From contig NW_005434536.1 of NCBI RefSeq assembly GCF_000315625.1, positions 1 through 64,000 on the forward strand: 64,000 bases of DNA, written 5' to 3'. Shown here one piece after another: positions 6,442 through 27,200 of the stretch. Under the pieces are notes generated by a model. It was not told the origin of the DNA and did no database searches. It worked only from the letters and a program-made list of their open reading frames with translations. The translations under genes and the position numbers were made by a program. The DNA is from Guillardia theta CCMP2712. Taxonomy: Eukaryota > Protista > Cryptophyta. Within the stretch, counting starts at the first letter, position 1. Every line of letters begins with the position of its first letter.

Positions 6442-6448
6442 TGATCCT

Positions 6449-7422: not shown

Positions 7423-7689
7423 TTATTCATTCAAGGAGAAGTCCGAGTCGGATAGGGAGGAGGATTCGGCGTCGGATTCTACCGGCGAGTGGATCGGCGT
7501 GAAGGTCTTCCTTTTCTTCACTGGGGTATTTGGCACCTGCAGATCAACCTTGGTCGGCAGCGGGGACAGGATCCCGTCGAAGTCGTCCTCATCCTCGCTG
7601 CATTCTGCCTTTCTTGCAAGCTTGACGAATATGGTGTCCTCGTTGAGCGACTTGATGAGCCAGGGGGCGAGCTGCGGCGTGGTGGCCAT
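7423..7689 (-). CDS. Small acidic Ser-rich protein with NLS-like motif (88 aa)
   Basis: MATTPQ start; PVKKRK; several SP/TP sites; AATAAA overlaps the stop (7422-7427). Confidence 0.6.
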   Translation of the reverse strand: MATTPQLAPWLIKSLNEDTIFVKLARKAECSEDEDDFDGILSPLPTKVDLQVPNTPVKKRKTFTPIHSPVESDAESSSLSDSDFSLNE

Positions 7690-7820
7690 GCGTGGTAGGT
7701 GGTGCGTGGGAATGGCCAGTGGCGGCCCTGTTTTTAAAAAAGGGTCCGGAGGGGGATTTGAATTCTTTTTTTTAAAAAAAAAACGGTCGCGGGGCTCAAC
7801 GGCAAGCGTAGGGGCAAGCA

Positions 7821-8543: not shown

Positions 8544-8544
8544 A

Positions 8545-9258
8545 TTATGTGTAAGACAAATGGCCGTGCCGGAGCCGGTCCATGTCCACCCTCCTGCAGT
8601 GAGGCCTGATGATGTGGTAGAGGTCGCTGGGAGTGCAGAGCCGGCTGTTCTCGCTGATCAGCCTCCAGAGCAGCTTCTTCCGCTGGATTGGGCTCTCGTC
8701 AATGAGCGCCCCGGCGAGTTCGTCGTTGTGCAGGCTGTTGCGCAGGGCGAGGACAAAGGCCTGGGAGCAGAAGACCTTCTTGACCTGAAGAGAGCTTTCG
8801 TTGGGGACGTCCTCGAAGAATCCGCTGTCCGGGAGGACGGTCTTCAGCGGTTGGTACAGCAGATCGGCGAGGTTGTACGGCACGCGGCGCTCCACCAGGT
8901 CGATGGCGTAATCGAAGAGCTTCGTGCTTTCTACTGGATCGAGGCGAAGGTGCAGTCCCTCATAGTCCCGACTGTTGTAGGACTTTCGCATGTTCACCGA
9001 CATGCTGAAGTGCTCGCCCATGAAAGTGGTGAGGCTCGGGCTGTCGTTGGGCTTCTCTTCCCGATGCACGTACAGGTCCACGTGTGCAAAGGGGCCCGTC
9101 ATGAGCTTGATGATCCGGTCGGATAGCATCACCGGCCGCCGGAAGACGAAGACACACTGGATCGGGCTCTTGCGCATGGGGTTGTCGCCGCTTGACTCTG
9201 GTGGGGGCTTCGTCGCCTCCTCCCCGTCCTCCTCACCGATGCTGAAGTTCGGTTTCAT
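8545..9258 (-). CDS. Permuted papain-like (NlpC/P60-related) amidase/peptidase (237 aa)
   Basis: His-before-Cys order with family motifs: GPFAHVDL, VPYN, VFCSQ, CTPSDLY. A TATA-like element ~30 nt upstream of ATG 9258 supports this start (the ORF extends to 9321). Confidence 0.8.
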   Translation of the reverse strand: MKPNFSIGEEDGEEATKPPPESSGDNPMRKSPIQCVFVFRRPVMLSDRIIKLMTGPFAHVDLYVHREEKPNDSPSLTTFMGEHFSMSVNMRKSYNSRDYEGLHLRLDPVESTKLFDYAIDLVERRVPYNLADLLYQPLKTVLPDSGFFEDVPNESSLQVKKVFCSQAFVLALRNSLHNDELAGALIDESPIQRKKLLWRLISENSRLCTPSDLYHIIRPHCRRVDMDRLRHGHLSYT

Positions 9259-9365
9259 TTTGGTGCGCTCGCTCTCCCATCTTATGTATATAGACACAGA
9301 GGCTCTGTTGGGAGAATCCATTTAAGGTTATTAAAACAAGGAATCGGCAAGGTACTACGGGTGTG

Positions 9366-9905
9366 ATGGATGATACGAATCTGCGGTTGCAAAACCTTGA
9401 AGAAAAGTTAGATTATATGAATCAAATCATTCAATCACACCAGACCCGCTTGGATGCGGTGAATCCTGTACTTGATTTTTTCAATCAAATGCAACATAAG
9501 ATAAACGAATTTAATAAGCAGCATCATATACCACTCAATGAAAAGCTAGAAGAAATCTTTGTTGCGGTGGAGCGCGTTGATCAAAACTTGGATAACCTGA
9601 AGAAAATACTTGAATTTGTGGATCTTTGCGCAAAGGAGCAGCACGCTCAAAGCAACGCGGGCGATGCAGAACCATCAAAGGATATACAGGACCGTGTGTA
9701 CAGACTGGAGCACGAGTATAACTCGTTGAAAATGGCTGTAGATGGGATCGTCAAGATGAAAGATGACATTAAGCATATTCTCACTGTGTCGGGTTCGATC
9801 AACTCCGATGATAGACTTCTATTCGCCCAACTTGGTGTCATCCGCTCGGACCTTCAAGACGTGGCTTCGACTTTCCGGGACTACCAAAACGGAATGTACC
9901 GCTAA
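9366..9905 (+). CDS. Hypothetical coiled-coil protein (179 aa)
   Basis: Heptad-rich ORF; AT-richer than its neighbours; overlaps the convergent gene by 4 nt. Confidence 0.7.
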   Translation: MDDTNLRLQNLEEKLDYMNQIIQSHQTRLDAVNPVLDFFNQMQHKINEFNKQHHIPLNEKLEEIFVAVERVDQNLDNLKKILEFVDLCAKEQHAQSNAGDAEPSKDIQDRVYRLEHEYNSLKMAVDGIVKMKDDIKHILTVSGSINSDDRLLFAQLGVIRSDLQDVASTFRDYQNGMYR

Positions 9906-10603
9906 GGGTGCTTGTGAATATCAACCAACAGGCGGTCCATGCTCTTCCCCCTCCTCTCGGGCTCTTCGGTCTCGTTGGCATGCTTGTCTTCGGCAGCTTT
10001 CTCGTCGTGCTCCTGTCTCACGGCGACGGAGGGGAGGAGGATGCCGGGCTCGGGGGTGTGGCAGCAGTGGGCCTGCGTGTGCCCCGGTCCCTCGGACCTG
10101 ATCCAGGCGGCGTAGCGCTCGGGATCGACGACCTTGCCCTTCATGAACCTCAGGCTGGTGTAGACGTTGACGATGAGGTCGGCGCAGATGCGGATGATGA
10201 GGAAGTCGACCTGGGAGAGCATGACGAAGAGCGCGAAGACGTTCATGACGCAGCAGTACAGCGCCCAGATCTGCGTGATCATGATGCAGGTAAATTTCGA
10301 GTAGGGGAGGAACTTGGTTTTGTGGTCCTGGATGGTGTTCTGGATCCAAGGGGAGATAGCGTCACCGACAAAGTCGTTAATGGAGGTCGAGACGAAGGTG
10401 AAGACGGCGACGCAGTTCCACTTGTACCAGCTGTTGATCTCCACGCCCATGATCTTGGAGTGCTCACCCGGCCCAAGCGTCATGAAGTTCGAGTCCGTCA
10501 CCCCGAGCTCGGAGAAGATCGCCAGCACCATCACCATCCAGGTCATCAGGAGGACGCAGGTCAGCCTCTTGTCCTCGAAGAGGCGGTGGAGGAGGTAGAT
10601 CAT
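9902..10603 (-). CDS. Multi-pass membrane protein (233 aa)
   Basis: About four hydrophobic segments. The pattern FMTLGP...INSWYKW...PWIQNTIQD resembles, from memory and unverified, an uncharacterised membrane family of large DNA viruses. Confidence 0.8.
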   Translation of the reverse strand: MIYLLHRLFEDKRLTCVLLMTWMVMVLAIFSELGVTDSNFMTLGPGEHSKIMGVEINSWYKWNCVAVFTFVSTSINDFVGDAISPWIQNTIQDHKTKFLPYSKFTCIMITQIWALYCCVMNVFALFVMLSQVDFLIIRICADLIVNVYTSLRFMKGKVVDPERYAAWIRSEGPGHTQAHCCHTPEPGILLPSVAVRQEHDEKAAEDKHANETEEPERRGKSMDRLLVDIHKHP

Positions 10604-10670
10604 GTCCCGCTTTTTATGAACTTACCGTCTCTGGTCTCGCCTAATTATATCCCCGAGTATGCGATAACTA

Positions 10671-10708
10671 AACACGGCAGCCACTTGGTCTCGCCTGCAC
10701 CCTCTCCA
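10671..10708 (+). repeat. 38-bp direct repeat, copy 1
   Basis: AACACGGCAGCCACTTGGTCTCGCCTGCACCCTCTCCA; 34/38 identical to 12600-12637, with the last 22 bp identical. Confidence 0.9.
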
Positions 10709-10785
10709 TCATCTCGTTGAGCGTGCGCTCGGGATGTGGACGACGCTGCACACGCTCTGGATAATGATGTTGCAGATATTGTTAA

Positions 10786-12474
10786 TTAAGTATATTGAGC
10801 TGGAATCATAAGTCTTACGGCTTTCGTCTCAAATTGATTTGGGAATGCGGCGTGTAGATTGTTTTTTGTTGGCTCAGATTTACAACAGATAACAAGCAGA
10901 AAGATGCCAATAATTACGGAAAACAGTATGGTGCTGGTAACACAGAAAGCATTTGTTCCAGTATGTTGCGCACTGATTGATTGAACATATCGTATATTGA
11001 TCGGTGCGACCGTTTGATTCGAATTCATATCGCACACCCCAGGAAATGTATCGTTGCAATCCGATGCATTTGTCCACCCACTGCATAGTGAGCATCTATA
11101 TGTTCTGCTGCATGTCTTATTGCTCAAGTTTGTACCAGGACCGCATGATTCTATGTCAGGGTTACATGTCTTGCCGTTTAAAGTGGTACCTTTTCCGCAG
11201 CTCTGGATGACAGACTCACAAGTCTTTCCTAATAAAGCAGTACCTGCTCCGCAGCTCTCGATAGTAGCATTACAGGCACTTCCAACACATTCTCCTGTAG
11301 TAGAATCCAATGTGGTTCCTTCTCCACAGCTCTGGATTGCAGACTCACAGGTTGTTCCTAATAAAGCAGTACCTGCTCCGCAGCTCTGGATCGTAGCATT
11401 ACAGGCACTTCCAGTAGAGTACGTCCCTGGACCATAGCTTATTGATGAAACACATTCTGCTGTAGAAGAATCCAATGTGGTTCCTTCTCCACAGCTCTGG
11501 ATTGCAGACTCACAGGTTGTTCCTAATAAAGCAGTACCTGCTCCGCAGCTCTGGATAGTAGCATTACAGGCACTTCCAGTAGAGTACGTCCCTGGACCAT
11601 AGCTTATTGATGAAACACATTCTGCTGTAGAAGAATCCAATGTGGTTCCTTCTCCACAGCTCTGGATCGTAGCATTACAGGCGCTTCCAGTAGAGTACGT
11701 CCCTGGACCATAGCTTATTGATGAGATACATTCTCCTGAATTTGAATCCAATGTGGTTCCTTCTCCACAGCTCTGGATTGCAGACTCACAGGTTGTTCCT
11801 AATAAAGCAGTACCTGCTCCGCAGCTCTGGATAGTAGCATTACAGGCGCTTCCAGTAGAGTACGTCCCTGGACCATAGCTTATTGATGAAACACATTCTG
11901 CTGTAGAAGAATCCAATGTGGTTCCTTCTCCACAGCTCTGGATTGCAGACTCACAGGTTGTCCCTGATAAAGAAGTACCTGATCCACAGCTCTGGATGGC
12001 AGACTCACAGGTTGTACCTGATAAAGCAGTACCTGCTCCACAGCTCTGGATAGTAGCATTACAGGCACTTCCAGTGGAGTACGTCCCTGGGCCATAGCTT
12101 ATTGACGAGATACATTTTCCTGAATTTGAATCCAATGTGGTTCCTGCTCCACAGCTTACAGACGAAACACATTGTCCTGTAGCAGAATTCAATGTAGTTC
12201 CTGTTGCACAAGAAATAGGCGTACATTGATTGCTAACACATGTAGTATATTGATTTGGACAACATAGAGTTGTTCCGCAAGCCGAGTAACCTGTTACTAT
12301 ATCACAACTTGAATAACATCGAATCAAAATTGGATCACACTTTTGTGAACTTTGACAGCAGGTGTACGAGGAACCGGTTCCACATTGGATATAGTTAACC
12401 GGACATTGACATCTACTTTCTGGTAATATCATGATCAGAATGAGGAGGGAGTAGATGATATGCATTTTATCCAT
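10786..12474 (-). CDS. Type I membrane surface glycoprotein with Cys/Gly/Thr tandem repeats (562 aa)
   Basis: N-terminal signal peptide; ~20 repeats of 18-19 aa; TM segment FCVTSTILFSVIIGIFLLVICC; short tail; TATA box at 12497-12506. Confidence 0.9.
   Translation of the reverse strand: MDKMHIIYSLLILIMILPESRCQCPVNYIQCGTGSSYTCCQSSQKCDPILIRCYSSCDIVTGYSACGTTLCCPNQYTTCVSNQCTPISCATGTTLNSATGQCVSSVSCGAGTTLDSNSGKCISSISYGPGTYSTGSACNATIQSCGAGTALSGTTCESAIQSCGSGTSLSGTTCESAIQSCGEGTTLDSSTAECVSSISYGPGTYSTGSACNATIQSCGAGTALLGTTCESAIQSCGEGTTLDSNSGECISSISYGPGTYSTGSACNATIQSCGEGTTLDSSTAECVSSISYGPGTYSTGSACNATIQSCGAGTALLGTTCESAIQSCGEGTTLDSSTAECVSSISYGPGTYSTGSACNATIQSCGAGTALLGTTCESAIQSCGEGTTLDSTTGECVGSACNATIESCGAGTALLGKTCESVIQSCGKGTTLNGKTCNPDIESCGPGTNLSNKTCSRTYRCSLCSGWTNASDCNDTFPGVCDMNSNQTVAPINIRYVQSISAQHTGTNAFCVTSTILFSVIIGIFLLVICCKSEPTKNNLHAAFPNQFETKAVRLMIPAQYT
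11110..12213 (-). repeat. Intragenic mosaic array of 54/57-bp units
   Basis: Three unit types (SCGAGTALxGTTCESAIQ, SCGEGTTLDSxxxECxSSI, SYGPGTYSTGSACNATIQ), each near-identical at the DNA level. Confidence 0.95.
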
Positions 12475-12496
12475 TTATTGAATATATGCGGGTTTT

Positions 12497-12506
12497 CTTT
12501 ATATAG
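12497..12506 (-). promoter_or_regulatory. TATA box
   Basis: CTATATAAAG on the minus strand, ~25-30 nt upstream of ATG 12474. Confidence 0.6.
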
Positions 12507-12599
12507 ACGAGCCATCAGCGGTGGACTGGCATCACGCGTGTGATAGGTGCCCGCGTCGCAAATGGTCTCCGTCCACGCGCTGGCAAGAAGGGAGGAAGC

Positions 12600-12637
12600 A
12601 ACACAGCAGCCATCCGGTCTCGCCTGCACCCTCTCCA
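12600..12637 (+). repeat. 38-bp direct repeat, copy 2
   Basis: AACACAGCAGCCATCCGGTCTCGCCTGCACCCTCTCCA. Confidence 0.9.
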
Positions 12638-12650
12638 AACTAACTCGATC

Positions 12651-14542
12651 TTACTTACCGCTAGGGGGTAGGTAGACGAAGATGTCGACATTGTGCTTGT
12701 CCATGTAGCGGCAGAGGAGGCGGAGCATGTGTATCGACCTGTAATCGATGCTGTTCTCGTGCGCGTAGTTCTTCATGTCATCCCAGAATGTCTCCTGCTT
12801 GAGAAGGTCCTTCGGGGTGAAGATGAATGGATTCTCGCGCATCTTCGGCTCGACGGAGGAGGCGGGCGGGGCTGGCAGCGCCTCCATTGCGATCTCCGAC
12901 TCGGCAAACAGGAGGGGGTTGCGCACGCAGATGGGCAACTGGTAATTGCTGGCGGTTCTCAAGACCTCCTGTGAGAGGAAGAAGTAGTAGCGGCAGCGGA
13001 CATCGTCAGAGTAAAGCTTGAGCTGTTCCCAGAAATCCTTGTCTGCCTTGAAGTCGTCGAGCTTGTACTTGATGTCATCTTGCCACTCGGAGAAAGAAGT
13101 CAGGTACTTGTCGAGGTCGGTGACGAACTGGAAGTGGGGGTTCCAAATGCACTCGACCTTCCAGTTGATGGCAATCTTGCATACATCGACGATCAGGCGG
13201 AGATGGGCCATTATGGCGCAGGCCTTGCGGCGGATATCAAAGACATGCAGATACAAGATGGAGTTCAATATGTGATCGTCCTGCGTGATGGCGATGGCGG
13301 TGCAGATGGCGATGATGTCCGACTCCGGAAGGTCGCGAACGTTGTGGACAGTGCTTGGGAAGGGGAGAGATTCCTTCTTCATGCTGCGCTCGATGAGGAA
13401 TACGACATGGTCGATGAATTTCTTCATCAGCGAGATGTTCTCGAGTCCCATGAAAGGCTTGGTAAGGTCCTGTGGGACTGCCCTGCGAATGACATCCTTC
13501 GTCTCTCCGTCGCTGATCCCGTCGTCTATGCACTTGTTGCCGTGCATGATGGCCAGGAAATACTCTGTCGGTTCGCGGATGGGGAAGACGCGCTCGACAA
13601 ACGGCTTGGGGCTGAGCAGGTGCTTCTCACTGATCTTCTGTGCGAGGGTGGTGGCAGATTGGAAGCATGCGTTGTACTTGTTCTCGTATGGGATATTCTC
13701 GACCTGGTCATCTCCCAAAGCCTCCATCTGACAGATGCACTCGTGATACTTGGCCGCGTCGTGCCCCCCAAGGATGTCCTCCTTGCTTTCGGTGGAGATG
13801 ATGTGCTGGGGGTAGCCATGCACCTTTCCGTCAAAGTTGATGGACCTCCGGATGATACCAGTGCTTTCGCCATCAAAGTCGGGGTAGAAGATTCCGCGTA
13901 CCTTCCCCGTGAAGAGTATGCCGATGTTGTCATCGTGACGGTAGAAGCTGATCGACTTCTCAATCGGGAGGTCCGAATGCCTGTGCAGGTGAATGACGCG
14001 AACGCTCTCGTACATCATCGTGCCGATAGAGGGTTGGCCGAAGAAGATGCAGGTGAGCTCGCGGCCAATCTCCCCGAATCTGCAGTAGACAAATGGACCA
14101 GCTCGGCGACGTTGCACGCGAAGGAGAATCCCGTGAAGGCAACGGTACCGGCAGGCTGCGCGCGGAGGAAGGAGGAGAGCTCGCCGAGCGCCGGCGATTC
14201 GATGAAGGTGCGGGCCAGCTCCGCGACGGGGGTGTGGACCTTGACGTTGATGCTCTTGTCACTCCACTTGGGCGAGACGGAACCGAGCTGGGTCAGTCCC
14301 CCGCGCTGAAGCATGCTGCGCTCCTCCTCCTCGTCGATGCCGAAGGAAATGACGATGTCACCGGCGGCGGTGCGAGCGGCGAAGGCGGTGACCGGTCCGA
14401 CGGTGAATTCCTGCACGCCGGTGATGGACGAGGGGAGGGGGAACTGGGATCTGTTGTACGAGTGGAGGGCGCAGTGGCCGTAGGCCGCGACCTGCGAATA
14501 GCGCACGATCCATTGATTGTGTGGCAGCGTGGCGGCACACAT
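12651..14542 (-). CDS. Class-3 lipase-like alpha/beta hydrolase with C-terminal helical domain (~630 aa once one frameshift near 14072-14075 is repaired)
   Basis: ORF 14015..14542 supplies VKVH and VAFTGFSFA (GxSxG-like). ORF 12651..14117 supplies FFGQPSIG, HSDLP and HDAAKY, in lipase-3 order. One extra G joins the two. Confidence 0.65.
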
Positions 14543-14863
14543 GGGGGAAAGCTGGGGGTGCGCGAAATTCCCCCCACCCCGCTTTTATTGGGGGGACCGG
14601 GAGGTTCGTGGATGGCTTTAATTGGGGTGGGTGGTATTTATTACCCGTGGTAATTAGGTACAGACAGGGGGTATATTTAATTTAAATCTAAACCCCCTCT
14701 GCAAGGGGTGGGTGGTCGAGTCCTCTTTTTTTTCCTAAATGCGGAAATTGGGATAAAGAGGGGTGGGTGGGTGGTTTCACGGGGTAGTGCCAGGTAATTT
14801 AACGGGTGAGGGTGGTGATAAATGATCCGCTTCGTTGGCGGAGGTGGGGTAGGAGCGGGGTTG

Positions 14864-14870
14864 TATAAAA
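14864..14870 (+). promoter_or_regulatory. TATA box
   Basis: TATAAAA ~36 nt upstream of ATG 14906. Confidence 0.6.
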
Positions 14871-14905
14871 CGGAGAGTGGCTCGGCGGCCCAACACAACA
14901 AGAGG

Positions 14906-15469
14906 ATGCCACGCTCCTTTTGGTTGCCAAAGTCTGACGGTGACGTTCTTTTGCAGAGGCCCACCCTATACAACCTCGATGATGTGCTGAAGAAGCATAT
15001 CGATCCAAGCTCTAGGAACATCAAGAGGTTGGATGAGTTCTTGGTGGACTTCACTGTGCAGATCATTGAGACGGAAAAGTCTGATGACTTTGTGTATGAG
15101 ATGCATGATAATGATGTCTTGTACGTGTCTGCCAGAGTGATCTGGGATGCCCTGTTTCGGTTGTTGAACGAAAGTGATGTCACCTTCATCAACAAACAAG
15201 TGGAGAAGGATGTTCAAGACGCCGAGAAGATCAAGGAGAATGATGGTTGGATCCACTTCTTGATGATATATGGGCACAAGTCACAGGAAAAGTACCTTCC
15301 CCAAGTTTCTCAGTCTTGTGAGTTTCGTCACAAGCTGGCGATGTACAAGCTCAATGAGGAGGCTGCTGAGCTCGAGAACGAGAAGAAGAGGCTTGAGATT
15401 GAGGTGCTGAGGAAGCAGCTTGGAAGGCCATCGAAGCGTGGACGTGAGTCGGATGACGATGATGAGTGA
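14906..15469 (+). CDS. Hypothetical protein with C-terminal coiled coil and basic/acidic tail (187 aa)
   Basis: TATA upstream and AATAAA at 15479-15484; tail ELENEKKRLEIEVLRKQL...KRGR. Confidence 0.8.
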   Translation: MPRSFWLPKSDGDVLLQRPTLYNLDDVLKKHIDPSSRNIKRLDEFLVDFTVQIIETEKSDDFVYEMHDNDVLYVSARVIWDALFRLLNESDVTFINKQVEKDVQDAEKIKENDGWIHFLMIYGHKSQEKYLPQVSQSCEFRHKLAMYKLNEEAAELENEKKRLEIEVLRKQLGRPSKRGRESDDDDE

Positions 15470-15478
15470 CGTGAAAAG

Positions 15479-15484
15479 AATAAA
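15479..15484 (+). terminator. Polyadenylation signal AATAAA
   Basis: Lies 10 nt after stop 15469; one of at least seven AATAAA hexamers at gene ends. Confidence 0.6.
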
Positions 15485-15499
15485 ACAGCGTTTAATGAT

Positions 15500-16048
15500 T
15501 CACAATTCCCTTGCCCTCTCCATGATCTCGTTCAGCGTCCGCCGGGGGATATGAACTGCGCTGCATACCCTTTGAAGGATGATGTTGCAGACCTTGTCCC
15601 TGACATGTGCTTTCATCCCCGTCCTCTCGGACTCCTTGGTGGCCTGGAAGAACTGGAAGATGACTTCGGATGTGTCGAGGTAGATGCGTTGCCCGTCGGG
15701 CTTCAGCGTTGCCATCCCGCCCCCGCCCATCTGCGTTGAAAGCGTCGCCCTGCTGTTCTCCTGCATAAATTGGAGGATTTCAAGAAGCAGGATCTTCTGC
15801 TCTTCCCGCATGCAGAAGAAGGGGAATATCGCCGTGTTGAAACCTTGAAATGGAGCCAGGCCAATCTTGGTGATGCTGATCCTGATTGGGGTAGATAGGA
15901 AAATGCAGATAGTGTGGGTGATCGGGTCTTGAACGTCCGAGGTGCAAGTGTTACACATGTAGACCATCATGTCTCTCAGGTTCTCCCCTTCCAGGAACAG
16001 CTCGATGAAGCGCTGGAAGAGATCCTTTTCCTTGTCTTCTTGCATCAT
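15500..16048 (-). CDS. Hypothetical protein (182 aa)
   Basis: ORF with coding-like composition, convergent on the previous gene. Confidence 0.75.
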   Translation of the reverse strand: MMQEDKEKDLFQRFIELFLEGENLRDMMVYMCNTCTSDVQDPITHTICIFLSTPIRISITKIGLAPFQGFNTAIFPFFCMREEQKILLLEILQFMQENSRATLSTQMGGGGMATLKPDGQRIYLDTSEVIFQFFQATKESERTGMKAHVRDKVCNIILQRVCSAVHIPRRTLNEIMERAREL

Positions 16049-16299
16049 GTGAGTGAGTTTGTTTCAGGCTGATCATTCTGAGATTTTGGTGAAGTTTTTT
16101 TTTCTATTCAAGGTGGGGTGGGGTTATTCCTTTTTTTTCAAGGGTGGGTCTCGTGAGGGGGGCGTTTTTTTTTACAAAAGATCTTACCACCCACCCTTTT
16201 CCCTTCAAATGAAAAAAAAAACGTCGGGGTGGGCTCCACCCCTCTATTTGATCCCAGCCTTTGCCGCCGGAGGCAAAAACCACGACCGATTGCCACGCT

Positions 16300-17019
16300 A
16301 TGTCGTCGAAGGGCCAATCCAAGGGAAAGGCCGCTCCTACTCACCGTGTGCGGACTAAGATGCCGGATGTCTTCGAGTCGCAGGGTGTCATGTTCACTGC
16401 ATTCGAGCAGAGTCAGTACGATGAGACCTTTGATGTTAGCTATGGGTGGGAATTCAAGGACTGGTTCAAGACTGTGACATCGTCTGAAGAGAGTAAGCAG
16501 CACAATCATGTATTCTTTGTGAAGAAGAGTCCGATCACTGAGAAATGCTTTCCCTGCTTTGACATGGTTCCACCTGCTGCTTTCACCCTCAAGCACAACA
16601 TTCAAAAACTTCAGTGCCCTGAAAAATACAAAGAGAAGGAATTCCAAGCCCGTTGTATACTGTGCGGATTGGACGGGGACAGGGCACACAAGGGCTGTTC
16701 TATGGCATTGGTGACTCGGACTCTCACCAGGAAGGACAAATCATTCAGCGTGGAGAGTCTGAAGTATCCTACTGAGATCAAGAAATTCTTCGGTTTCTCT
16801 TTGTGCAGCCCGCATGCCAACCAGCTTGACGACTGTTGTAATGCTGTACTTATCAATATCGTGAAGCAGTGTATGAAGTCACACTCCGATGTTCTGGTCG
16901 ATACCCTCGTCTTTCGCAAACACAACGACGTTTTTGTCAAGGACATACCTAAGCGAACGGTGAAACCTGCGCTTGACTTGGTTAAGGAGAATCCGGAGCT
17001 CATACCTTCCTCATCGGAA

Positions 17020-17055
<36 letters not shown>

Positions 17056-17886
17056 GAGGATGGTGACGAAGGAAGTGATATTTTCTCTGCATTGGTACAG
17101 AAACAGAACAAGCTGAAGGAACAGGACAAGCAGCAGGAAGCTCCCAAGGAGCCCGCTGAAAAGGACAAGCAGCAGGAAGCTCCCAAGGAGCCTGCCAAGA
17201 AGGACAAGCAGCAGGAGCCTCCCAAGGAGCCTGCCAAGAAGGACAAGCAGCAGGAGCCTCCCAAGGAGCCTGCTGAGAAGGACAAGCAGCAGGAAGCTCC
17301 CAAGGAGCTTGCTGAGAAGGACAAGCAGCAGGAGCCTCCCAAGGAGCCTGCCAAGAAGGACAAGCAGCAGGAAGCTCCCAAGGAGCCTGCCAAGAAGGAC
17401 AAGCAGCAGGAGCCTCCCAAGGAGCCTGCCAAGAAGGACAAGCAGCAGGAGCCTCCCAAGGAGCCTGCCAAGAAGGACAAGCAGCAGAAAGCTATTTCAG
17501 AATCTGCCTCGAAGGATGATGAAATTTTCGACAATGCTCTGAATGTCATCATGAGAATGAAAAATAAGCTCAAGGACAATTCTATTGAGCAGGAGAAAGA
17601 GGAACTGATCAAGGAGAGCCGTGAACTGAAGCGCAAACTCGAGCAAGTGACCCAAGAGTACAACAAGCTGCAGAAGGTAACCGACAGTGTGATCAAGAAG
17701 TCGGACGAGATGAACAATTTCCTCCGTGCTAAGTACCGGCAGAGCTTAGAGCAGAACAAGGTAATCGAAGCTGAAAATGTAATGCTCAGGGCTAACCTGG
17801 TACTTTGTGATGAGAAGCTATCCGCTTTCCAGCATGTGGCACATGATCTTGACAAGTTCAGGGATTGCATCAAGCAGTCAAAGTAA
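16300..17886 (+). CDS. Hypothetical protein: Cys/His-rich domain, poly-Asp, 13-aa repeats, C-terminal coiled coil (528 aa)
   Basis: CILCG...HKGC...CSPH; D11 tract; nine DKQQE(A/P)PKEPA(K/E)K units; long heptad region. Confidence 0.85.
17020..17052 (+). repeat. (GAT)11 microsatellite encoding poly-Asp
   Basis: Read directly from the sequence. Confidence 0.95.
17125..17487 (+). repeat. 39-bp coding minisatellite, 9 full copies plus a partial
   Basis: GACAAGCAGCAGGA(A/G)(G/C)CTCCCAAGGAGCCTGCC-type units in tandem. Confidence 0.97.
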
Positions 17887-17976
17887 CTATGTGTGCGTGT
17901 TGTGTATGTACTTACCTTGTGGAGAGGAAGTATAACAGTCGTGATTAAAGCGTACCTTCAAAACACACTACTAGGG

Positions 17977-18654
17977 ATGTGGCCCATCGCCTACGATACC
18001 ATCCTTAATCTCTTCATATCCCGCGAGCGGGAGGAGCGAGAGGAGAGGAGGAGGAGGCAGGAGGAGGAGGCGCGCCAGACCCGTCTCATCTCACCCCTCC
18101 AGCTGCGTATGCAGGCAGTCAGGGGGGTGGAGCAGAGGAGGGAGGAGGGCATAAGGGACATGGATGGCTTCAAGCGAATGCAGATGTGCCGCGACGCGCT
18201 TTCGGCGATCGACCAGAGGGGTTGGAACCGCTCTTACCATCAGCGGGAGTTTCACAACGATTTCCTCCGAGCCTGTGCCCGTGTGTTCTGGAAGACAGAC
18301 CCGCACGGCCAGTTCAGCCGTGATCACCAGAGGATCTTGGAGCTCAACGGATGGGACCACCTCGCGCAGGAGATCCTTGTCAGCACGCCCCGTCGATTCG
18401 GCAAGACCATTTCCGTGAGCATGTTTGCGGCGGCGATGATGTTCTCGGCCCCTGGGGTGGAGGTGTCGATATACTCGACCTGTAAGCGCATCTCGCAAAA
18501 ACTCCTCCGCAACATACAGAAGTTCCTTTACATCATATACGAGCAGATGGGGGTACAGGCTTACAAGGTGATCCGTATGAACATGGAAGAGGTCGTTGTC
18601 CAGGGTCCTGAAAGCAGGCAGGATGTCAGGATTGTCAACTCCTATCCTTCCAAG
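17977..18654 (+). CDS. DNA-packaging terminase ATPase subunit, N-terminal part (putative exon 1, 226 aa)
   Basis: Q-motif RSYHQ; Walker A LVSTPRRFGKT (STPRRFGKT at 18382-18408; compare herpesvirus VPRRHGKT); motif IYSTCKRIS; ends IVNSYPSK at AAG|GTGATA. Walker B and the nuclease domain are missing. Confidence 0.85.
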
Positions 18655-18739
18655 GTGATACCCGCATGCCGCGCTTGTCTTGTACTTGTTACTGACCCAC
18701 CCGGAGCGGACGCGATCCGGTGTTGACTGACACTGGCAG
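18655..18739 (+). other. Predicted spliceosomal intron (85 nt), or the 5' part of a much longer intron
   Basis: Donor AAG|GTGATA; two ACTGAC branch-like motifs (18691, 18726); acceptor ...CACTGGCAG. Confidence 0.55.
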
Positions 18740-18858
18740 GTCGCTTACAACTTCAAAATTTATCGAAGAGGTGAAAAATTTCGAGTTTTACCTGAAATTA
18801 TTCGGGTGTTGAAATCTTTTTAAATTTCGATCAATTTTTTGAAATTTGTTTTTTTTTG

Positions 18859-18884
18859 GAAAGGCCACGGGGCCGTGGCTTTTC
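18859..18884 (+). other. Stem-loop flanked by T-runs
   Basis: GAAAGGCCACG-GGGC-CGTGGCTTTTC: 11-bp stem with one G-U pair. Confidence 0.55.
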
Positions 18885-19089
18885 AAGAACTTTTTTTTTA
18901 TTTCCCCTACCCCCACCCATAATTTCCCAATCGGGGGAGACTGGAAATGGGGGTGGTAATTGACTCTCCGCGGTATTTATTGGGGGCAGGGCGGTGAGTG
19001 GATTTTCAGAATTGCGCCGTCCGATGCTGCCACGCGCTCCGGATGGTAAGGCGGGTGGGTGTTACGCTGAGGTGAGCCTGCGCTTTAGT

Positions 19090-22000
19090 ATGACCAGTGG
19101 TATGTCTTATGCCAGCATTATAAGGGGTGATGCATGCTATGCCGAGGGTGGGGGGAGCGGGGTGGAGCCTTGCGGCGGAGGACCGCGGCAGCCGGAGGAA
19201 AGAGGGTGTGTGGAAGAAGAGGGTGCAGCTGGTACGGGGTGTGATATACAGCACGAGCTCGAGCTCGACGGGAACCTGGACATGAGTTTCCATCCGGACG
19301 GCTTCGGTGACTTCTTCGATACATATCCCGACGAGAGTGCAGGTTAATTGTTGATCCTTTCTTGATTTTTCTTTCTTGTTGCTTGTTTCTTGGATTCATA
19401 AATTATCTTACTATGTGTGATTGTCATCAGGACTCCCATTATTTTCAGATCAGCGCATATTTGAAGCGAGAAGCAGCGAGGCACTCCCTCCCCCTCCCCC
19501 AGCGGACCACTCAGAGGAGGATGAAGGGAGTGATAAGGACAATGAAGGTGAGAGATAGATGAATGGGGAGAAAATTTGATATGATATGCAATGCAGGTAA
19601 TACAAGCAAGAAGGAATTCATCGTTTTCAGAGATAAAGGTGTCACGGAATATGTGTGCTCAAACGACAAGAGCTTGCGCTCAAAACAGTCCGATTTCTTC
19701 ACGAAGAACAACAAGGAAATACGCTCGTTTCTTTCTGATGTCATGAATGGTCTGGAGTTTGACGGAGTCTTCAAAGATAAAGATTACGTTGTGATTGACT
19801 TCAATCGCTGCATGGGTATCGCCGGCCCCATCATTGCCCGCCTTCACCAGAAGCTGCTGATGGACAAGGATGGGGCAAAGTGTTGTGCCCGTCTGATCTC
19901 CTCCCTGAAGCAGATGCGAGAGGAGGACGTGCAGCACTCGGAGGCCAAGATTAAGCAGCTCGAGTGCCTCCGAGTCTGTGACATGGACTTCTTCAGCTAC
20001 CTCTGCTTTCTCCTCAGCCTGGGCTGCAACCGGAAGATCGACTCCATGGAGGGGAGTGCCATTTACAGTCGTCATATCGTCCCCTGTCTGCAGGAGCTTA
20101 CCTGCACCACACAGTTGGCCGATGTGGATGTGAGGAGCATCATGATGCTAGGCAGCTGGCACATGGTCAATGCCTTCCAGACCTGCTGCGTGAGCCGGAA
20201 GGGAATTGCCTCTATTTGGGGCAGCGTGTGCATCGCGGAGGAGAGGGCGATGGAATTCCTCCGCTCTATCGATATTATTTGCATTTACCGGGGGACGGGA
20301 ATCAAGGCCAACAAGCACCTTACTGAATACCGCACCATAGTGCAGAGGGCGGTGTGGACCACCGTCAACGGACTAATGGGCGTCTTCTACAAGAGAATGG
20401 AGGACGCGTGCGCCAAGATTCCAATCTCTTACATGCGGAAGAATCAGATGTCAGATGTGGGCATGCAGAGCTGCGTGAAGCTCTCTGATTACCTTTCCCT
20501 GTTACCCTTCACCGAATACATCCCTGCAGGTTACTACTACTTCACTCCGACGGAGAAGTACGCCTTCTTCGTGCAGGGCATATGCGCCATCACCACCTTC
20601 CACTTCGACGACTTGAAGCCGAGGGTGGAGATTTTTCTCTATGTCAAGAATTGCAAGATGCCCGGCACTCCTTGGACCATACCACTCCGATTCCTACTCT
20701 CCAAGGAAATGTGCACCTGGGTGGTCGACTGGAGACAGTTCCAGCATGAAATCTTCACCGCCGTCAAGCAGCGTCGTTGCATCATTATGCGGAAGGGCAA
20801 GGTCGATGTCAACTTTGTACCGGAGGAGCATTTTGTGAGGAATGGGAAGATTCCGCATGACGTGAAATCATACAAGGTTGTCAGCCAGTTTCAGACCAAG
20901 GAGACATGCATGTCGATTGTCGGGAATTTGAAGCTCCTTATTGGGAAGTCGGATTCGATGCTGTTTAACATCCGGGATGAGGCCAACCGACCCGCCCTTA
21001 CCGCCTACGGGAGCCATGCAGACGCCGTCTTCAACATCATGAGGGAGGCGGTAAAGTTTGAAGAGCTCGGTAAGCTCCGGGTCCTTCCCGAGGAGAGTCT
21101 ACAGAACGATGTCATCTTTACCAGATCCATCAGCGCATTGATAAGGAAGTTGTCCAGCTCCACCATGGTGAATCATGATAATTTGATCAGCATTTTGCGT
21201 CTTACCCTTGCCCTGTGTGACCGTGAAAATATTGGGAGGTGTATCTACGACAGCATCCGTGGTATCTTCGAGCAATTCTATTCCTCCCTCGAGTTTGGAG
21301 ATGGCAGCTGTATCCGTCTGGAGTTTGATGAAGAGAAGGTGCATGAGTTTGCCATCCTTTGCCTTGGCGCGGATGGTCCATCTGAAAAGGCACCACTTCC
21401 AGACAGCCATAAGCGCAAGGAGATGGAGTCAGGAACTCCCTCTGACAAGATCCCGCAGCAGTCGCCATTCAAGATTCCGAAATTGCCAACTTCCAATGTT
21501 TTGGAGCAGCCACCTTCAAAGGTCCCGGAGCAATCGTCGTCGAAAAACACTCCTGCCCCTGATGTACCTGAGACAGAATCATTTATTCATAAGGACGATA
21601 TTGTGCCCTGCGATCTGGTTGAAATCATCTTCCTACCGCAGGAAGAGGAAGTGATGGAGACTGAAGAAAAAGGATCCGACGAGCCTGCCCCGCGTGAAAA
21701 TGTCGAAGAATTGACGAATAACGCAGAGGTGCTACTGCAGAGCGCCAATCAGATCATGCAGCAAAAGACTTCGAATGAGCCATCCTTGAAGAAGAAGAAG
21801 CCATCAAAGGATGATCCTAGGATTGAAAAGCATGCCGCCATGATCAATGACTTCCTCGACAAGCTCAAGGTCGACGACAGGTTGCTGAAGCAAACCCTTT
21901 TCATGTGTCAGACGGACATGGTCTTCATGGGTTCGGACCTGGACTACTGGAGCCTGCGGAGCAAGAAGCTGGAGAAGGGAGACCCGCTTAACCTTCAGGA

Positions 22001-22208
22001 TGTCGTCGTCTGCTTTGTCCAGAGTTACACCATGAAAATGAACAAGATGAAGGTCGGGACTGACTTCCGCGAGCGTATGAAGAGCTTTTCAAGAGATGTG
22101 GTGAATGATAATCTCGAGTTCATGATGCATTCCTTCGACGAGACGATGGGGATATGTGACTACATGATCAACATTGCTCGGAAGAACATGAAGTTTATGA
22201 TCGTTTGA
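19090..22208 (+). CDS. Large hypothetical, probably nuclear protein; predicted three exons 19090-19342, 19431-19547 and 19597-22208 (~993 aa; 5' start uncertain)
   Basis: Two phase-1 GT-AG introns join ORF 18994..19347 to the 881-aa ORF in frame. NLS-like PSLKKKKP; Pro/Ser-rich linker. Confidence 0.75.
19343..19430 (+). other. Predicted spliceosomal intron (88 nt; alternative in-frame acceptor at 19448)
   Basis: CAG|GTTAAT...TCATCAG; very T-rich; contains an in-frame stop. Confidence 0.65.
19548..19596 (+). other. Predicted spliceosomal intron (49 nt)
   Basis: AAG|GTGAGA...ATGCAG|GT; AT-rich; contains an in-frame TAG; removal gives ...DNEG-NTSKKEF in frame. Confidence 0.7.
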
Positions 22209-22248
22209 GTCTATTTATTAATACTTATTGATGAATTGAAAAGAGAAG

Positions 22249-22638
22249 ATGAGCATGACCGATTCACAGATCGTGGGGGGCGTCCTGTGCTTCCTTCTTA
22301 CATCCATCGCATACTTCATGCTGTATTACATCTTTGTTTTCCCTGAACTCAAGAAGAGGGATTCGCAGGAGACTTATCTTAGTGTGTGGCACTGTCTGCT
22401 CACCCTCTTCATGGCGGGCGGCGTCGCCCTGACCTTCATTCTCTCCTCGAGCGCCAACGGGGAGCAGCAGCTCGCCTTCTACACAACCCTTGTCTTTGGG
22501 TTGGTGTACTTCTGTTGCAACGAGATCGGCATCACTATCCTTCGGCAGAGTTTGACCAAGCCCATCCCGGATCTGTCTCCCTTCTCCTGGGATGTCGTGC
22601 AGACATACCAGAGGAGGATGACGCGGGATGGGATCTGA
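22249..22638 (+). CDS. Small three-TM membrane protein (129 aa)
   Basis: Three hydrophobic segments; lies directly upstream of the portal-like gene. Confidence 0.75.
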   Translation: MSMTDSQIVGGVLCFLLTSIAYFMLYYIFVFPELKKRDSQETYLSVWHCLLTLFMAGGVALTFILSSSANGEQQLAFYTTLVFGLVYFCCNEIGITILRQSLTKPIPDLSPFSWDVVQTYQRRMTRDGI

Positions 22639-22685
22639 GATGGGGAGGGGATATAACAGCCGCGCGGGCGCCCTGCCCGAGATCG

Positions 22686-24233
22686 ATGGACGGTGGGGCT
22701 TACAAGCGCATGCGCATGTCGCAGGATGCGATGATGAGGAAGGAGAAGTTCAGGAGGCACGATGAGGAGGAGAGCTTCTGGCAGCTGATGGAGATGGCAA
22801 GCTACGAACCCGTCATCAATGTTTCCTTTTCGACGATACAGGCGATGTGCCTTTCAAGAGACATAGACGTTGTCGTCGATAAGAAGCCCAGCATCCCTGG
22901 ATTCAAGAAATTTTTGAATATGTATTACAAGCCCTTCCTTGCCCACTGCATCCGGAGCTTCTTCGTGTGCGGCTTCGCGGCCGTCCGCTTCCGCAGGCTC
23001 GCCAGCGGGGACATCGTGCCCGAGTGCCTCCCGCTCGGCAGCTTCCGCTGGACAGTTGTCGCCAACCCGATGAGGAGGGACGGACAGGGAAACGAAGGCT
23101 CCGGCGCAGACAACATCAAGCCCGACGCACAGGAGCCCGCGAGCAGGAAGACCTACCTCCCCAAGTTCACGCCCAGGGAGAGCGACGAGAGCAAGATGCT
23201 CCGCTACAAGATCACGGTGCTTACCGGCAATGTCAAGGAGAACGAGGTCTACGTCTACGAGTTCGTGCAGCCGACCTTCAACGTGTCGGGCAACTCCCGC
23301 TTCTACGCAACGGTCAGCAGCCCGATGGCGGGCCTGATCCATGAGTACCGGGACCTGCGCGAGGCGAGGGCGAGGCGCTCGATGGCCGACGCCTGGAACA
23401 CCAGGGCCCACGTCGTCTGCTCGCTCAAGGACAGCAAGATACCGACGGACCAGCCCAGGGAGAACTTCCTGGCCACCCAACTGACGCTACCCGCCGTCCG
23501 GGCCGAGCACAACCTCTTCCTGGCCAGCCTCGCCGAGGAGGAGGGTATGCAGGCAAGGAAGGTCACCGAGCAGATCGAGGAGGAGTTCCTGGAGAATTCA
23601 GGCAACCATCCCCCGCTCCTGCACATTCTCCCGAAGAACTACGACAGCCAGATGCTCGGCCAGTTGAACCCGGTCGAGGACATATCCCTTCTCTACAACC
23701 AGTGGACGAACTCAGTCTTCCAACTGTTCAAGATCCCGCCCAAGATGATGATCGGGAACCTGGGGCTCACCAAGGAGGCCGGCATGAACCAGCGGATATT
23801 CTCGGCCGAGATGCAGCAGCTCTGCATGCATCTGCGAGCCTTGGCCGGGAATGTCTACTCCATCATCTACGGGGAGGAAGACCCACACAGGGTCAACTTC
23901 GTCATCCAGCCCGCCCCTAAGATCGACGTCGAGAGCATCGAGGACCTCAAGATGCTCTTCGAGATCGGCTCGATCAAACCATCCACCGCTGCTAAACTGT
24001 CGGATACGCTCATCAACGCGGATAAGGACATCCTTGCGAGTGTGAACGGGAATATGGGTGGTATGGTCGGCGTCCCGGGAGAGATGGGGGCGATGAAGGA
24101 TCGGAATGAGTCTAAGGAGGACAGGGATGCCGGGAAGGTTACAAGGACCGAGCTCCAGTACCAGGCCCCGAAGAAGGCCACCCCCGCCAAGTTCGCGCCA
24201 CCGCCCAAGGAGCCAGTGAGTAAGAAGAAATAA
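22686..24233 (+). CDS. Portal protein, HK97-type fold (515 aa)
   Basis: Collinear portal-like pattern: EPVINVSFSTI; FLAHCIRSFFVCGFAAV..RR...GDIVPECLP; ILPKNYD; VFQLFKIPPKMM; IFSAEMQQL; LFEIGSIKPS. ATATAA at 22651 and AATAAA over the stop. Recognised by eye only. Confidence 0.7.
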   Translation: MDGGAYKRMRMSQDAMMRKEKFRRHDEEESFWQLMEMASYEPVINVSFSTIQAMCLSRDIDVVVDKKPSIPGFKKFLNMYYKPFLAHCIRSFFVCGFAAVRFRRLASGDIVPECLPLGSFRWTVVANPMRRDGQGNEGSGADNIKPDAQEPASRKTYLPKFTPRESDESKMLRYKITVLTGNVKENEVYVYEFVQPTFNVSGNSRFYATVSSPMAGLIHEYRDLREARARRSMADAWNTRAHVVCSLKDSKIPTDQPRENFLATQLTLPAVRAEHNLFLASLAEEEGMQARKVTEQIEEEFLENSGNHPPLLHILPKNYDSQMLGQLNPVEDISLLYNQWTNSVFQLFKIPPKMMIGNLGLTKEAGMNQRIFSAEMQQLCMHLRALAGNVYSIIYGEEDPHRVNFVIQPAPKIDVESIEDLKMLFEIGSIKPSTAAKLSDTLINADKDILASVNGNMGGMVGVPGEMGAMKDRNESKEDRDAGKVTRTELQYQAPKKATPAKFAPPPKEPVSKKK

Positions 24234-24250
24234 ATCGTATATTCGTATAC

Positions 24251-27200
24251 TCACGGCATCCTCACGACCGCGGCCTGCCCGGCGGGGATTGCGATGTGGA
24301 TGAAGGAGGTGACCCTCCGGTTGGCAGTGAGCCAGTCTGAGAAGGTCGGGGGCCAGTGGTAGGCGGTTCGCATCCAGAAGTAGGAATAACTAGCAAGATC
24401 TGCCTCCCCACACCTTGCCTCCGCGTAGCGAGACGCGATGGAGGTATACAGAAGCAGATTATCGGAGAGCCAGGTTGTTGCCTGGGAGGTGCAGGCCGAG
24501 GGGGAGTCCGGGAGGCGGAGCAGGTCGACCAGACCAATCGTGCTCGTCTGGGTGACGCAGTACATGGGGTAGTCTCTGAAGCAGGCCTTCTGGAATGTAT
24601 CTGAGAGGACGAGGTGGCTGGTACCTTGGGTGAGGAAGACCCTACTCTGGTCCATCAGCCCGCGGATCAGGCCCGGGAGGAGATCGCCGATGGCGTGGAT
24701 GAGGACGATTTCAATCCTTGTCACCCCAGGGACCCCTATCCTGACCGACAGCAGAGAGTCCTGTATCGACTCGGACAAGGAGGGGAATTCAATGCCTGAT
24801 GTGTAAGGTATCCAGGAGCTGTTCAGCCCGAAGCGGAAGGCGGCGGGTAGCTTCCTTTCGTCCACCGAGACGAGGCTCGCCGTGCAGGTTTCCAGGAATT
24901 TCTCTGTAAGGGCCACCCCTGTGAAGGCATAGCCACCTTTCCTGGAAGCCAGCAGGAGGGTGATCCTTGCTGTGTCGAAGTCATGGTAGAGGTGGGGTGT
25001 TTGAAGGACGACGTACATGGGCCAGCCCGGGCGCCAGGTGAAGAGCGTCTCGCAGTGCGTCCCGGCCGTGTTCTGGTCGATGACGACTGCGCCGTGGAGT
25101 GCTGGGCTCGCGGACCAGCACGAAGGGAGTGGAGCCAGGCTTGCGCAGATCCTCTGCTCGTCGATGACATCCCACCCCTTCCAGCCACCGTAGCGGAGGA
25201 TGTAGGTCATGGCCTGGGCCCTTACCAGGAGCTCCTCGTCTCCCTCGAAGACGAAGCGGGCGGCGTATAGGTTCGAGCCTGCGAACCGGTACAGTGAAAG
25301 AGAGAGGTAGGAAACCATCCCCGGCTGCACCTTCTGGATCACCGACATCGAGGCCGACACGCCCCGGCTGTAGCTCACCCTGTGGTAGACCGTGTGGTAC
25401 GTCGTAGATAGTGTAGAGTCTACCTGGATGAACATGGCCGCGATATAGAAGCTGCAGTTCAGCCACCCCTGACCCCAGGGCGTGCAGTTCACGACGGGCT
25501 CCAGCGCGGCGGCGTCGATGGAGAAGCGGTAGAGCCCGCCGTAGGCCGGGGTGAGGTCCATGAAGCCGTACGTGTCCTGCCCGTAGGGGATGTACCTTTC
25601 GTAAAATGCCTTCTCTAGCCGCTCACAATCGCAGGTCCCATTGGGGCAGGCCTGGTACGTGACGGAGAGGGAGGCGGGGAGGAGTTCTTCAGAAGTATCA
25701 CTCTGGATCTCGGAAAGGCAGCACGCCTTGCATTCGACCTCTGGTATGCTCTTAGAAAGATACAGAACAGGGATTGATGTCCCAGAGGTATGTTTGAGCA
25801 GTATACTCCCGGTGATGGCATCATGAAACCCATCACCTGAAACATTTGTGATGATCAGATCGTCAGTGACGGGGGAGAGGAGCTTGGATTCCGGCTGACA
25901 TGCGTCGTAGTCCTCGTCGAGGATGTAGCCCGGGTCGCAGCGGGCCAGGCAGGAGTAGTCGGTGACGAGGTAGTGCTTGGCGATGCTGTCGCTGAGAGGG
26001 CAGGACTGGCAGGGTTGGTCTCCCAGTCCCTTCTTGAAGGAGAGCGTGCCGCAGGGGACGCAGGTCTTCGTAACATTGGCCTTGGAAGCAAGACCGTAAT
26101 CTGGGATACACTTACACATATCACTCGAGTTGGAGGCACTGCTTGCTGTTGTAGTGTAGAGGCCGACGGCTGTGCACGGGCTGCAGAACGAGGAAGCGGG
26201 AAATTCGGAGAAGTAGCCCACCCAACACGAGACGCATACCTCCGCGTTGCTCAGGGAGGGTTTGTAGCTTCCAGGACTGCAAGGACTGCATGTGTCCTCC
26301 CCGATCCTCTCATATCCTGACTCACAGATGCAACCCTCGATGTTCGCGGTGCTAGAGAGGGACAGGGAGTGATTCGGGCAGGGCAGGCAGCTGGTGGAAT
26401 CCACCGCCCCGTACTCGGGCTGGTACGTGTTGAAATCGCAGGAGGAGCAAGGGAGGTTGCTGACGCCGGGTTTGTAATGCCCAGGGTAGCAGGTCCGGCA
26501 GCCCTTCAGAGGTACCAGCGGGTCGATCGGAGTGTTACCCGGGAGGCAGCGGCAGCTCCCTGTGCTCTGGCTTCCCGTAAAGAGCGTCGTCATACCGGAG
26601 GGGCAGGGGACACAGCCTGAAATAATCTCGATTGAGTTCGATGCGTAGTAGCCTTCTTTGCAGGGGGGGCAGGATGCCTGCCCCTGGCCGATGCCGGAGG
26701 TGCCGAGCGGGCAGTATTCGCAGTACAGCGAAGCATTCTCGGGAGTGTAAGACCCCCTCTCGCAGGGACGGCAGGCATCGTTCAGCGTGCTATCCTTGTA
26801 TTTACCAGGTGGGCAGGCCGTGCAGGTCATGTGGTAGCCCCCCGACGCTACTGGCTGCAGTCTGTACTCGTACCCTGGGACGCACCGGCAGTCATACTGG
26901 AACTCCGCCGCGGTCTTGTACGTGATGGAGTTGGCCGGGCAAGCGAGGCACTGGTCGGCTCGGGTGGCGGCTGTGATGGGCTGGTAGGTATCGAAGTCGC
27001 AGGGGATGCACGCGGAGGACCCGTTGGTGTCTTCGTAGAAGCCCGCGGGGCAGGGCTCGCACTTGTGTAGCGCAGGAGAGTCTCCAAAGTAGCCCGGGGG
27101 ACAGGGCTCGCAGAAGAGCATGCCGGGACCCCGGTAGTGCCCTATCAGGCAGGCCACGCACTGGTAGACCCCCGCAACCAGCTGGATCTCGTATCCGTCC

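What the first reader, a model, noticed from the sequence alone, without database searches (positions are those of the whole stretch)
17977..18823. Terminase gene stops at a splice donor with its second half missing: candidate long-range or trans-splicing
Seen: similarity ends at IVNSYPSK, exactly at AAG|GTGATA. Neither read-through (VIPACR...) nor the local splice to 18740 (VAYNFKIY...SF*, stop 18823) gives the expected xRG / Walker B (hhhhDE) / RNase-H nuclease portion, and no listed ORF in the 64 kb supplies it. Established: the herpesvirus terminase ATPase gene (HSV UL15) is spliced just before the IRGQDF/Walker B segment, with other genes inside the intron. Inference: exon 2 lies over 45 kb downstream, upstream of the window, or on another transcript, and splicing could gate virion packaging.
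Basis: partly seen in the sequence, partly recalled or inferred. Interest (0 to 1): 0.88.

Follow-up and report, generated by a model that had tools for sequence, protein, structure and literature searches.

The report
Front half of split mirusvirus terminase
This is the front half of the DNA-packaging enzyme gene of a herpes-like virus that likely infects single-celled algae; it stops at a splice signal shared across its relatives, back halves exist elsewhere in the same DNA, and the two parts are likely joined as RNA, an arrangement already published for these viruses.

Summary
Real, but known. 17977-18654 encodes the Walker-A half of a mirusvirus-type terminase and ends at AAG|GT. The break is clade-wide: 120 of 120 top homologues lose similarity at the same NSYPS[KRE]. 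Back halves begin at the next codon behind an acceptor-like Q (66 of 67), in register with unsplit terminases. No back half is in the window (best E about 0.5), but both DNA samples holding exon 1 also hold back-half contigs, one at matching depth (60.8 vs 67). 18740-18990 is not miscalled. No junction RNA was seen, so trans versus very long cis splicing is inferred. Medvedeva et al. (PMC12768974) published this layout for most mirusviruses, with RNA support, and this scan noted it before on other DNA. Corrections: the partner reads TKG and ILEEAAY, not xRG and DE; the local acceptor at 18739 is not conserved. One new lead, in relatives only: a tRNA or tRNA-like stem 7-108 nt behind the donor in 19 of 80 loci, a candidate cut site that would create the split precursor.

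The parts
17977..18654 (+). Terminase large subunit, 5' coding exon (226 codons, ATPase N-part), open and undamaged
   Evidence: 88% identical to P0001 over the 160-residue core; aligns to the N-part of unsplit terminases
18382..18408 (+). Walker A motif STPRRFGKT
   Evidence: conserved in split and unsplit relatives; aligned to T4 gp17 Walker A
18655..18660 (+). Phase-0 spliceosomal donor (AAG|GTGATA) with no partner acceptor exon in the window
   Evidence: same position in 72 of 80 related loci (GT 70, GC 2), 4-5 nt later in 8
18691..18741 (+). Branch-point-like ACTGAC (18691, 18726) and CAG|GT at 18737-18741: local acceptor that leads to a 27-codon dead end; role unexplained
   Evidence: only CTGAC..YAG|GT in 5600-24300; not enriched in relatives, 2 of 58 vs 1.07 expected
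18849..18899 (+). 11-bp hairpin (18859-18884) between two T runs; candidate end of the 5' precursor (inferred)
   Evidence: z -2.4 for 18835-18905, 7 of 200 shuffles as good; z -3.0 for 18655-18910; no Rfam match near a gathering score
24229..24234 (+). First sense-strand AATAAA after the donor, at the end of three same-strand genes; a cis intron would have to read through it
   Evidence: AATAAA/ATTAAA sit at many gene ends in the window (for example 15479+, 6448-, 7422-, 41530-, 56653-)

Best explanation
The ORF is the intact 5' exon of a mirusvirus-type terminase gene, ending at a clade-wide splice donor, and it is likely joined by the host spliceosome, probably in trans, to a separately encoded Walker B/nuclease exon that lies outside the window. 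Shown: the donor, its conservation, the absence of the partner within 45 kb downstream and 18 kb upstream, and back-half coding DNA in the same samples. Inferred: which back half is the partner (most likely the P0198-type contig at single-copy depth), that the junction is K|I-G-T-T-K-G as in cis-linked relatives, that the pieces are separate transcripts, and that the element is a persistent or integrated virus of a cryptophyte-like host.
For: Break invariant in 120 of 120 homologues and 80 of 80 loci. Back halves start one codon later behind Q (66 of 67 with an upstream residue; 0 of 71 carry SYPS upstream). Halves abut with no gap or overlap against 8 unsplit terminases; 13 of 15 distant viral loci are unsplit. 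Four relatives show the same donor and acceptor in cis, 0.19 to 3.3 kb apart, while 11 of 12 loci with at least 9 kb downstream have no back half. Runs X1 and X2 hold exon 1 (depth 67 and 5.6) and two other contigs with back-half sequence (60.8 and 7.1; 143.7 and 9.4); their flanks match P0198-type and P0208-type proteins, and divergence of the two N-halves (77%) and two C-halves (86%) scales like that of linked anchors (65-67% and 73-76%). No sense poly(A) signal directly behind the exon here or in 0 of 58 relatives' first 250 nt (3.9 expected). Published: joined RNA for mirusvirus terminases, halves sometimes on opposite strands.
Against: The position and strand of the partner relative to exon 1 are unknown, so a very long cis intron is not excluded. 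Pairing rests on depth and divergence only; Logan depth is a rough measure, and the acceptor of the candidate contig was not seen. No perfect 12-nt complement between the intron stub and the rest of the window, and no pairing mechanism was found. A well-formed local acceptor at 18739 would compete with a distant one.
Confidence: 0.62

Rival explanations
1. Very long cis intron with nested genes: one transcript runs more than 45 kb (or round a circular or concatemeric genome) to the partner exon, an enlarged version of the herpesvirus UL15 layout.
For: L061 and L038 have 2.5 and 3.3 kb cis introns with nested ORFs at the same junction; most genes from 24251 on are antisense; antisense poly(A) signals are enriched behind relatives' donors, 19 of 58 vs 5.3.
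Against: The transcript would have to pass three same-strand genes and their AATAAA at 24229; opposite-strand halves are reported in other mirusviruses.
Confidence: 0.2
2. Silent endogenous relic: the split layout is inherited, but in this host copy the gene is no longer expressed or has lost its own partner.
For: The element sits in organism-labelled DNA runs ten years apart with identical sequence at a depth near that of other contigs; at least two different back halves are present, so pairing is ambiguous; cryptophyte assemblies carry many mirusvirus capsid homologues (18 in three assemblies).
Against: Exon 1 has no stop or frameshift and keeps 88% identity to its nearest relative; a back half at matching depth exists.
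Confidence: 0.13
3. Stepwise (recursive) or dead-end local splicing: the 85-nt intron to 18739 is removed first and regenerates AAG|GT as the working donor, or diverts transcripts into a non-productive form that regulates terminase.
For: Branch-like CTGAC plus CAG|GT, unique in 5600-24300; the nearest relative's read-through has Q-V 16 codons behind its donor (3 of 86 tails); YAG|GT in 19 of 58 vs 12.3 expected.
Against: Branch point plus YAG|GT in only 2 of 58 loci against 1.07 by chance; GTCGCT is a poor donor.
Confidence: 0.05

Closest known systems
Trans-spliced terminase genes of Mirusviricota (Okeanovirales, Styxvirales and others; Medvedeva et al., PMC12768974)
   Same: ATPase half ends at a canonical donor before Walker B; Walker B and nuclease encoded far away; the authors met the same puzzle of a missing Walker B (peer-review file); 'trans-splic' occurs 656 times in the genome table.
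   Different: Here the element comes from organism-labelled DNA rather than a metagenome bin, exon 1 has no internal introns, and no junction RNA was seen. Whether this exact K|I site is among those in their Extended Data Fig. 8 could not be seen (figure not held).
Herpesviridae terminase ATPase/nuclease gene (HSV-1 UL15)
   Same: Homologous enzyme (profile hit to the HSV-1 subunit, E 0.0012); spliced between ATPase and nuclease parts.
   Different: UL15 has a cis intron of about 3.5 kb; here nothing lies within 45 kb. Motifs differ (TKG and ILEE against IRG and VDE; the HSV motifs are recalled from the finding text, not checked).
Alloherpesvirus multi-exon terminase
   Same: Widely separated exons with trans-splicing proposed.
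   Different: Animal hosts; trans-splicing only hypothesised there; not compared by sequence here.
Unsplit mirusvirus-like terminases in IMG/VR contigs (L081-L095)
   Same: 35-42% identical over the matched part; same motif order; 3 of 3 tested pass Pfam Terminase_6N.
   Different: 13 of 15 are one ORF of 569-685 codons and read LRG where this clade reads TKG.

Membership tests
Terminase large subunit (Duplodnaviria) | Packaging-ATPase N-domain with Walker A, homologous to T4 gp17 and HSV UL15 | tested here: met
   Profile of the window half plus relatives hits T4 gp17 (E 2e-4) and HSV-1 terminase subunit 3 (E 1e-3); alone the half is weak (PHROG 4914, E 0.042; no PDB terminase hit)
Terminase large subunit (Duplodnaviria) | Walker B and RNase H-like nuclease encoded in the same reading unit | tested here: not met
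   Absent from the window; present off-window in the same DNA
Trans-spliced mirusvirus terminase | ATPase half ends at a canonical donor before Walker B | tested here: met
Trans-spliced mirusvirus terminase | Walker B/nuclease half encoded elsewhere in the same genome behind an AG acceptor | tested here: inconclusive
   Back-half contigs in the same runs, one at matching depth; linkage to this genome and their acceptors not seen; acceptor shown for relatives only
Trans-spliced mirusvirus terminase | The two parts are joined in RNA | tested here: inconclusive
   No RNA holder listed; 6% of one RNA run gave no informative coverage
Trans-spliced mirusvirus terminase | The two parts come from separate transcripts | not testable with these tools
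   Needs the full assembly and nascent or long RNA reads; no whole genome is held
Mirusviricota | HK97-fold major capsid protein and portal in the same genome | tested here: inconclusive
   No capsid gene recognised among 34 ORFs scanned; 22686-24233 resembles a portal by eye (recalled) but has no family hit and a model of pLDDT 35
Mirusviricota | Placement among reference mirusvirus marker trees (order, family) | not testable with these tools
   Reference proteins not held; own tree only separates the split clade from unsplit IMG/VR terminases (quick method). Nearest named homologues are from Guillardia, Hanusia and Baffinella assemblies
Herpesviridae UL15-type cis intron | Second exon a few kb downstream on the same strand | tested here: not met
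   None within 45,346 bases

The most novel reading that the evidence does not exclude
The split is made at the RNA level by a cutting signal just inside the intron: in one branch of relatives a tRNA or tRNA-like stem (acceptor and T arm kept, anticodon arm drifting or lost) that RNase P would cut, and in this virus a hairpin with a U run. An intronic tRNA, still seen in a short cis intron in L028 and L058, would then explain how viral spliceosomal trans-splicing arose: once the intron is cut anyway, the halves are free to move apart.
Probability: 0.2. Interest if true: 0.72.

Novelty: new member of a known kind. Interest (0 to 1): 0.25.

Why it matters
As a phenomenon, little: it is in print and common in this virus group. 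Two things add value. The element appears to persist in a repeatedly sequenced organism, so the junction, its cis or trans nature and any control of packaging could be tested by RT-PCR in a culture rather than in seawater RNA. And the tRNA-like stems behind the donor in relatives offer a concrete, testable answer to how the 5' precursor ends, which the published work (as far as I read it) leaves open.

Tried and rejected
Whole-genome search: no assembly is held and the records behind five long loci are not held, so exon distances beyond 10 kb could not be measured. RNA: no RNA holder listed; 6% of run X9 gave 8 scattered reads, 7 of them 90-95% alike, and no joints, and nothing on coding exons of the relative's gene beyond thin coverage near one; this is no evidence either way. 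Read-through or local splice supplying Walker B: rejected. Sequencing error at 18740-18990: rejected. Conserved recursive site: no enrichment. A tRNA-like element in the window: ARAGORN 0 at default; a relaxed hit at 18756-18828 is AT-rich with a weak T arm and failed the stricter scan and Rfam. Guide pairing between the intron stub and the window: none at 12 nt or more. Fused full-length close relatives: none of 14 longer hits continues into Walker B, and the best 150 of 2273 profile hits are at most 535 aa with the same stretch matched. Viral-contig scans with window proteins alone found nothing. Portal identity of 22686-24233: not established; no fold search was run on the low-confidence model. 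Protein atlas gave no answer. Folding energies of four tRNA-like elements are not better than shuffles (z -1.05 to +0.32), which weakens that lead. I searched for prior reports of the tRNA link: 'tRNA' has 0 hits in the main text of PMC12768974 and 4 hits in one supplementary table, of which the one shown is unrelated (one scanned supplementary file was not searchable); listings of two paper searches (15 of 42 and 15 of 17 shown) gave no such title.

Full report
Observation. The window holds an ATG-started frame from 17977 with the Walker A motif STPRRFGKT, reading to IVNSYPSK at 18654, followed by GTGATA. Read-through ends at 18726 and the local 85-nt splice gives a 27-codon tail ending at 18823. 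The DNA is sound: a contig of run X1 covers 17458-19700 without a difference (X1 may be the source), and an older run of another sample, X3, covers 18592-19381 with 0 substitutions and 3 small gaps.

What the protein is. Alone it scores weakly (PHROG terminase E 0.042; Pfam AAA-like below cut-off; no PDB terminase hit). It has 1174 homologues at E up to 0.001, the nearest named ones from Hanusia, Guillardia and Baffinella assemblies, organisms of a group known to carry mirusvirus capsid genes (PMC10827195, passages read). Fifteen distant viral contigs (35-42% identity) supply the unsplit form: 13 of 15 are single ORFs of 569-685 codons, 3 of 3 tested pass Pfam Terminase_6N, and a profile that includes them hits T4 gp17 and the HSV-1 terminase subunit. 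It is a mirusvirus-type terminase; the phylum is inferred, because no capsid gene was recognised in the window and reference trees are not held.

The break is a clade-wide splice site. In 120 of 120 best homologues NSYPS is invariant, the next-but-one residue is V in 110 (a GT codon), I in 8, A in 1 and absent in 1, and conservation then drops to 14-27%. In DNA, 70 of 80 loci have GT at this boundary, 2 have GC and 8 have GT 4-5 nt later; those 8 form one branch (97%). The missing half turned up in cis in 4 of 80 loci: about 0.19 kb downstream in L028 and L058 (followed by more short introns), 2.5 kb in L061 and 3.3 kb in L038 with nested ORFs. It starts IGTTKGTGGDVLILEEAAY. Of 120 back-half homologues, 71 include this start (49 begin further down); 66 of the 67 with an upstream residue have Q there, as a CAG acceptor gives, and 0 of 71 carry SYPS upstream. 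Against unsplit proteins the two halves abut with no gap or overlap. Only 1 of 12 loci with at least 9 kb downstream has the partner in view, so long separation is the rule.

Where the partner is. It is not in the window on either strand: best tblastn E about 0.5, motif scan negative; 666 N inside the tandem array are unseen. No assembly is held. I therefore laid the runs that hold exon 1 on the cis-spliced gene of L058 at 80% likeness. The window's own exon-1 contig was recovered as a positive control (depth 67 in X1, 5.6 in X2), and so were two other contigs with back-half sequence in both runs: one of 10,690 nt at depth 60.8 (X2: 7.1) and one of 1,488 nt at 143.7 (X2: 9.4). Their flanks match proteins P0198 and P0208. 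The window half is 77% identical to P0008, and P0198 86% to P0208, in step with linked anchors (65-67% and 73-76%). The simplest reading is two related viruses in the same DNA, with the P0198-type contig the partner of this exon. That pairing is inferred.

How it most likely works. Exon 1 is transcribed in the host nucleus, its donor has no productive local acceptor, and the spliceosome joins it to the acceptor of the distant exon, completing the ATPase and adding the nuclease. Trans is favoured over a very long cis intron because this virus places AATAAA or ATTAAA at gene ends and a cis transcript would have to pass three same-strand genes and the AATAAA at 24229, and because halves on opposite strands are reported in the group. 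Against: the partner's place is unknown, relatives show a continuum of cis introns, and no junction RNA could be examined. Odds: trans 0.62, long cis 0.2, silent relic 0.13, local or recursive splicing 0.05. The branch-like CTGAC and CAG|GT at 18726-18741 are real and unexplained, but not conserved (2 of 58 vs 1.07).

Comparison with what is known. Medvedeva et al. [quoted passage not shown] A 2026 review (PMC13595911, passages read) notes the 3.5 kb herpesvirus intron, the mirusvirus case and possible regulation. Four earlier notes of this scan reached the same reading on other genomes; I use them as context only.

A lead from relatives. ARAGORN on 60 of the 80 loci found 5 tRNA genes, all 5 within 7-61 nt behind the donor on the same strand (all 80 loci gave the same 5). 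Rfam confirms 3 of the 10 loci scanned, with one backbone and differing anticodon loops. A scan for a T arm plus acceptor stem finds 19 elements in 15.5 kb behind donors and 3 in the other 1.28 Mb, the inner part shrinking from 41-45 to 15 nt. These are not independent: they fall in 4 of 34 protein clusters at 90%, in three sub-branches of one clade when looser motif hits are added, their folding energies are unremarkable, and the window has none; it has a hairpin between T runs instead. RNase P cutting of such stems is recalled knowledge and untested here.

Verdict. A genuine, correctly interpreted, already published arrangement in a new genome. Interest 0.25; the tRNA-cut origin of trans-splicing is the bold reading (probability 0.2).

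Noticed in passing
L027, L028, L030, L031, L034, L039, L040, L047, L049, L051, L054-L058, L062, L064, L075, L079, 7-108 nt behind the donor: tRNA genes and shrunken tRNA-like stems directly inside the terminase intron; in L028 and L058 a tRNA-Ile(TAT) lies in a 0.19 kb cis intron.
   Followed up: partly
L011, L012, L022, L023, L033, L035, L043, L045: One branch has the donor shifted 4-5 nt (after I-G), an apparent intron slide; it makes the exon look as if it ended at AT instead of GT.
   Followed up: partly
17 of 58 non-redundant loci, first 250 nt behind the donor: Repeated AAAAGTC/T motif (3.1 expected); absent from the window, which has AAATTTCGA-like repeats at 18753-18847. Role unknown.
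   Followed up: no
window 5-5597: Tandem array of a 332-bp unit (98% identical copies) with a 666-N gap; possible genome terminus or junction with host DNA.
   Followed up: no
window 22686-24233 +: Conserved gene (25-28% to L001 and L007 ORFs) that resembles a portal protein by eye; not confirmed.
   Followed up: partly
window 24251-63975 -: Run of very large cysteine-rich repeat genes (ephrin-receptor-like, EGF, F5/8; up to 5444 aa), all on the minus strand.
   Followed up: no
window 9902-10603 - and 15500-16048 -: Unnamed genes with homologues in 15 and 5 related terminase loci, supporting a viral context.
   Followed up: no
L058 10957-10972: A second near-copy of the 16-nt IGTTK micro-exon without a GT donor lies 160 nt after the first.
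   Followed up: no
P0008 and P0208: In a named cryptophyte assembly a front half and a back half are annotated as separate hypothetical genes on different contigs (191 kb and 85 kb).
   Followed up: no
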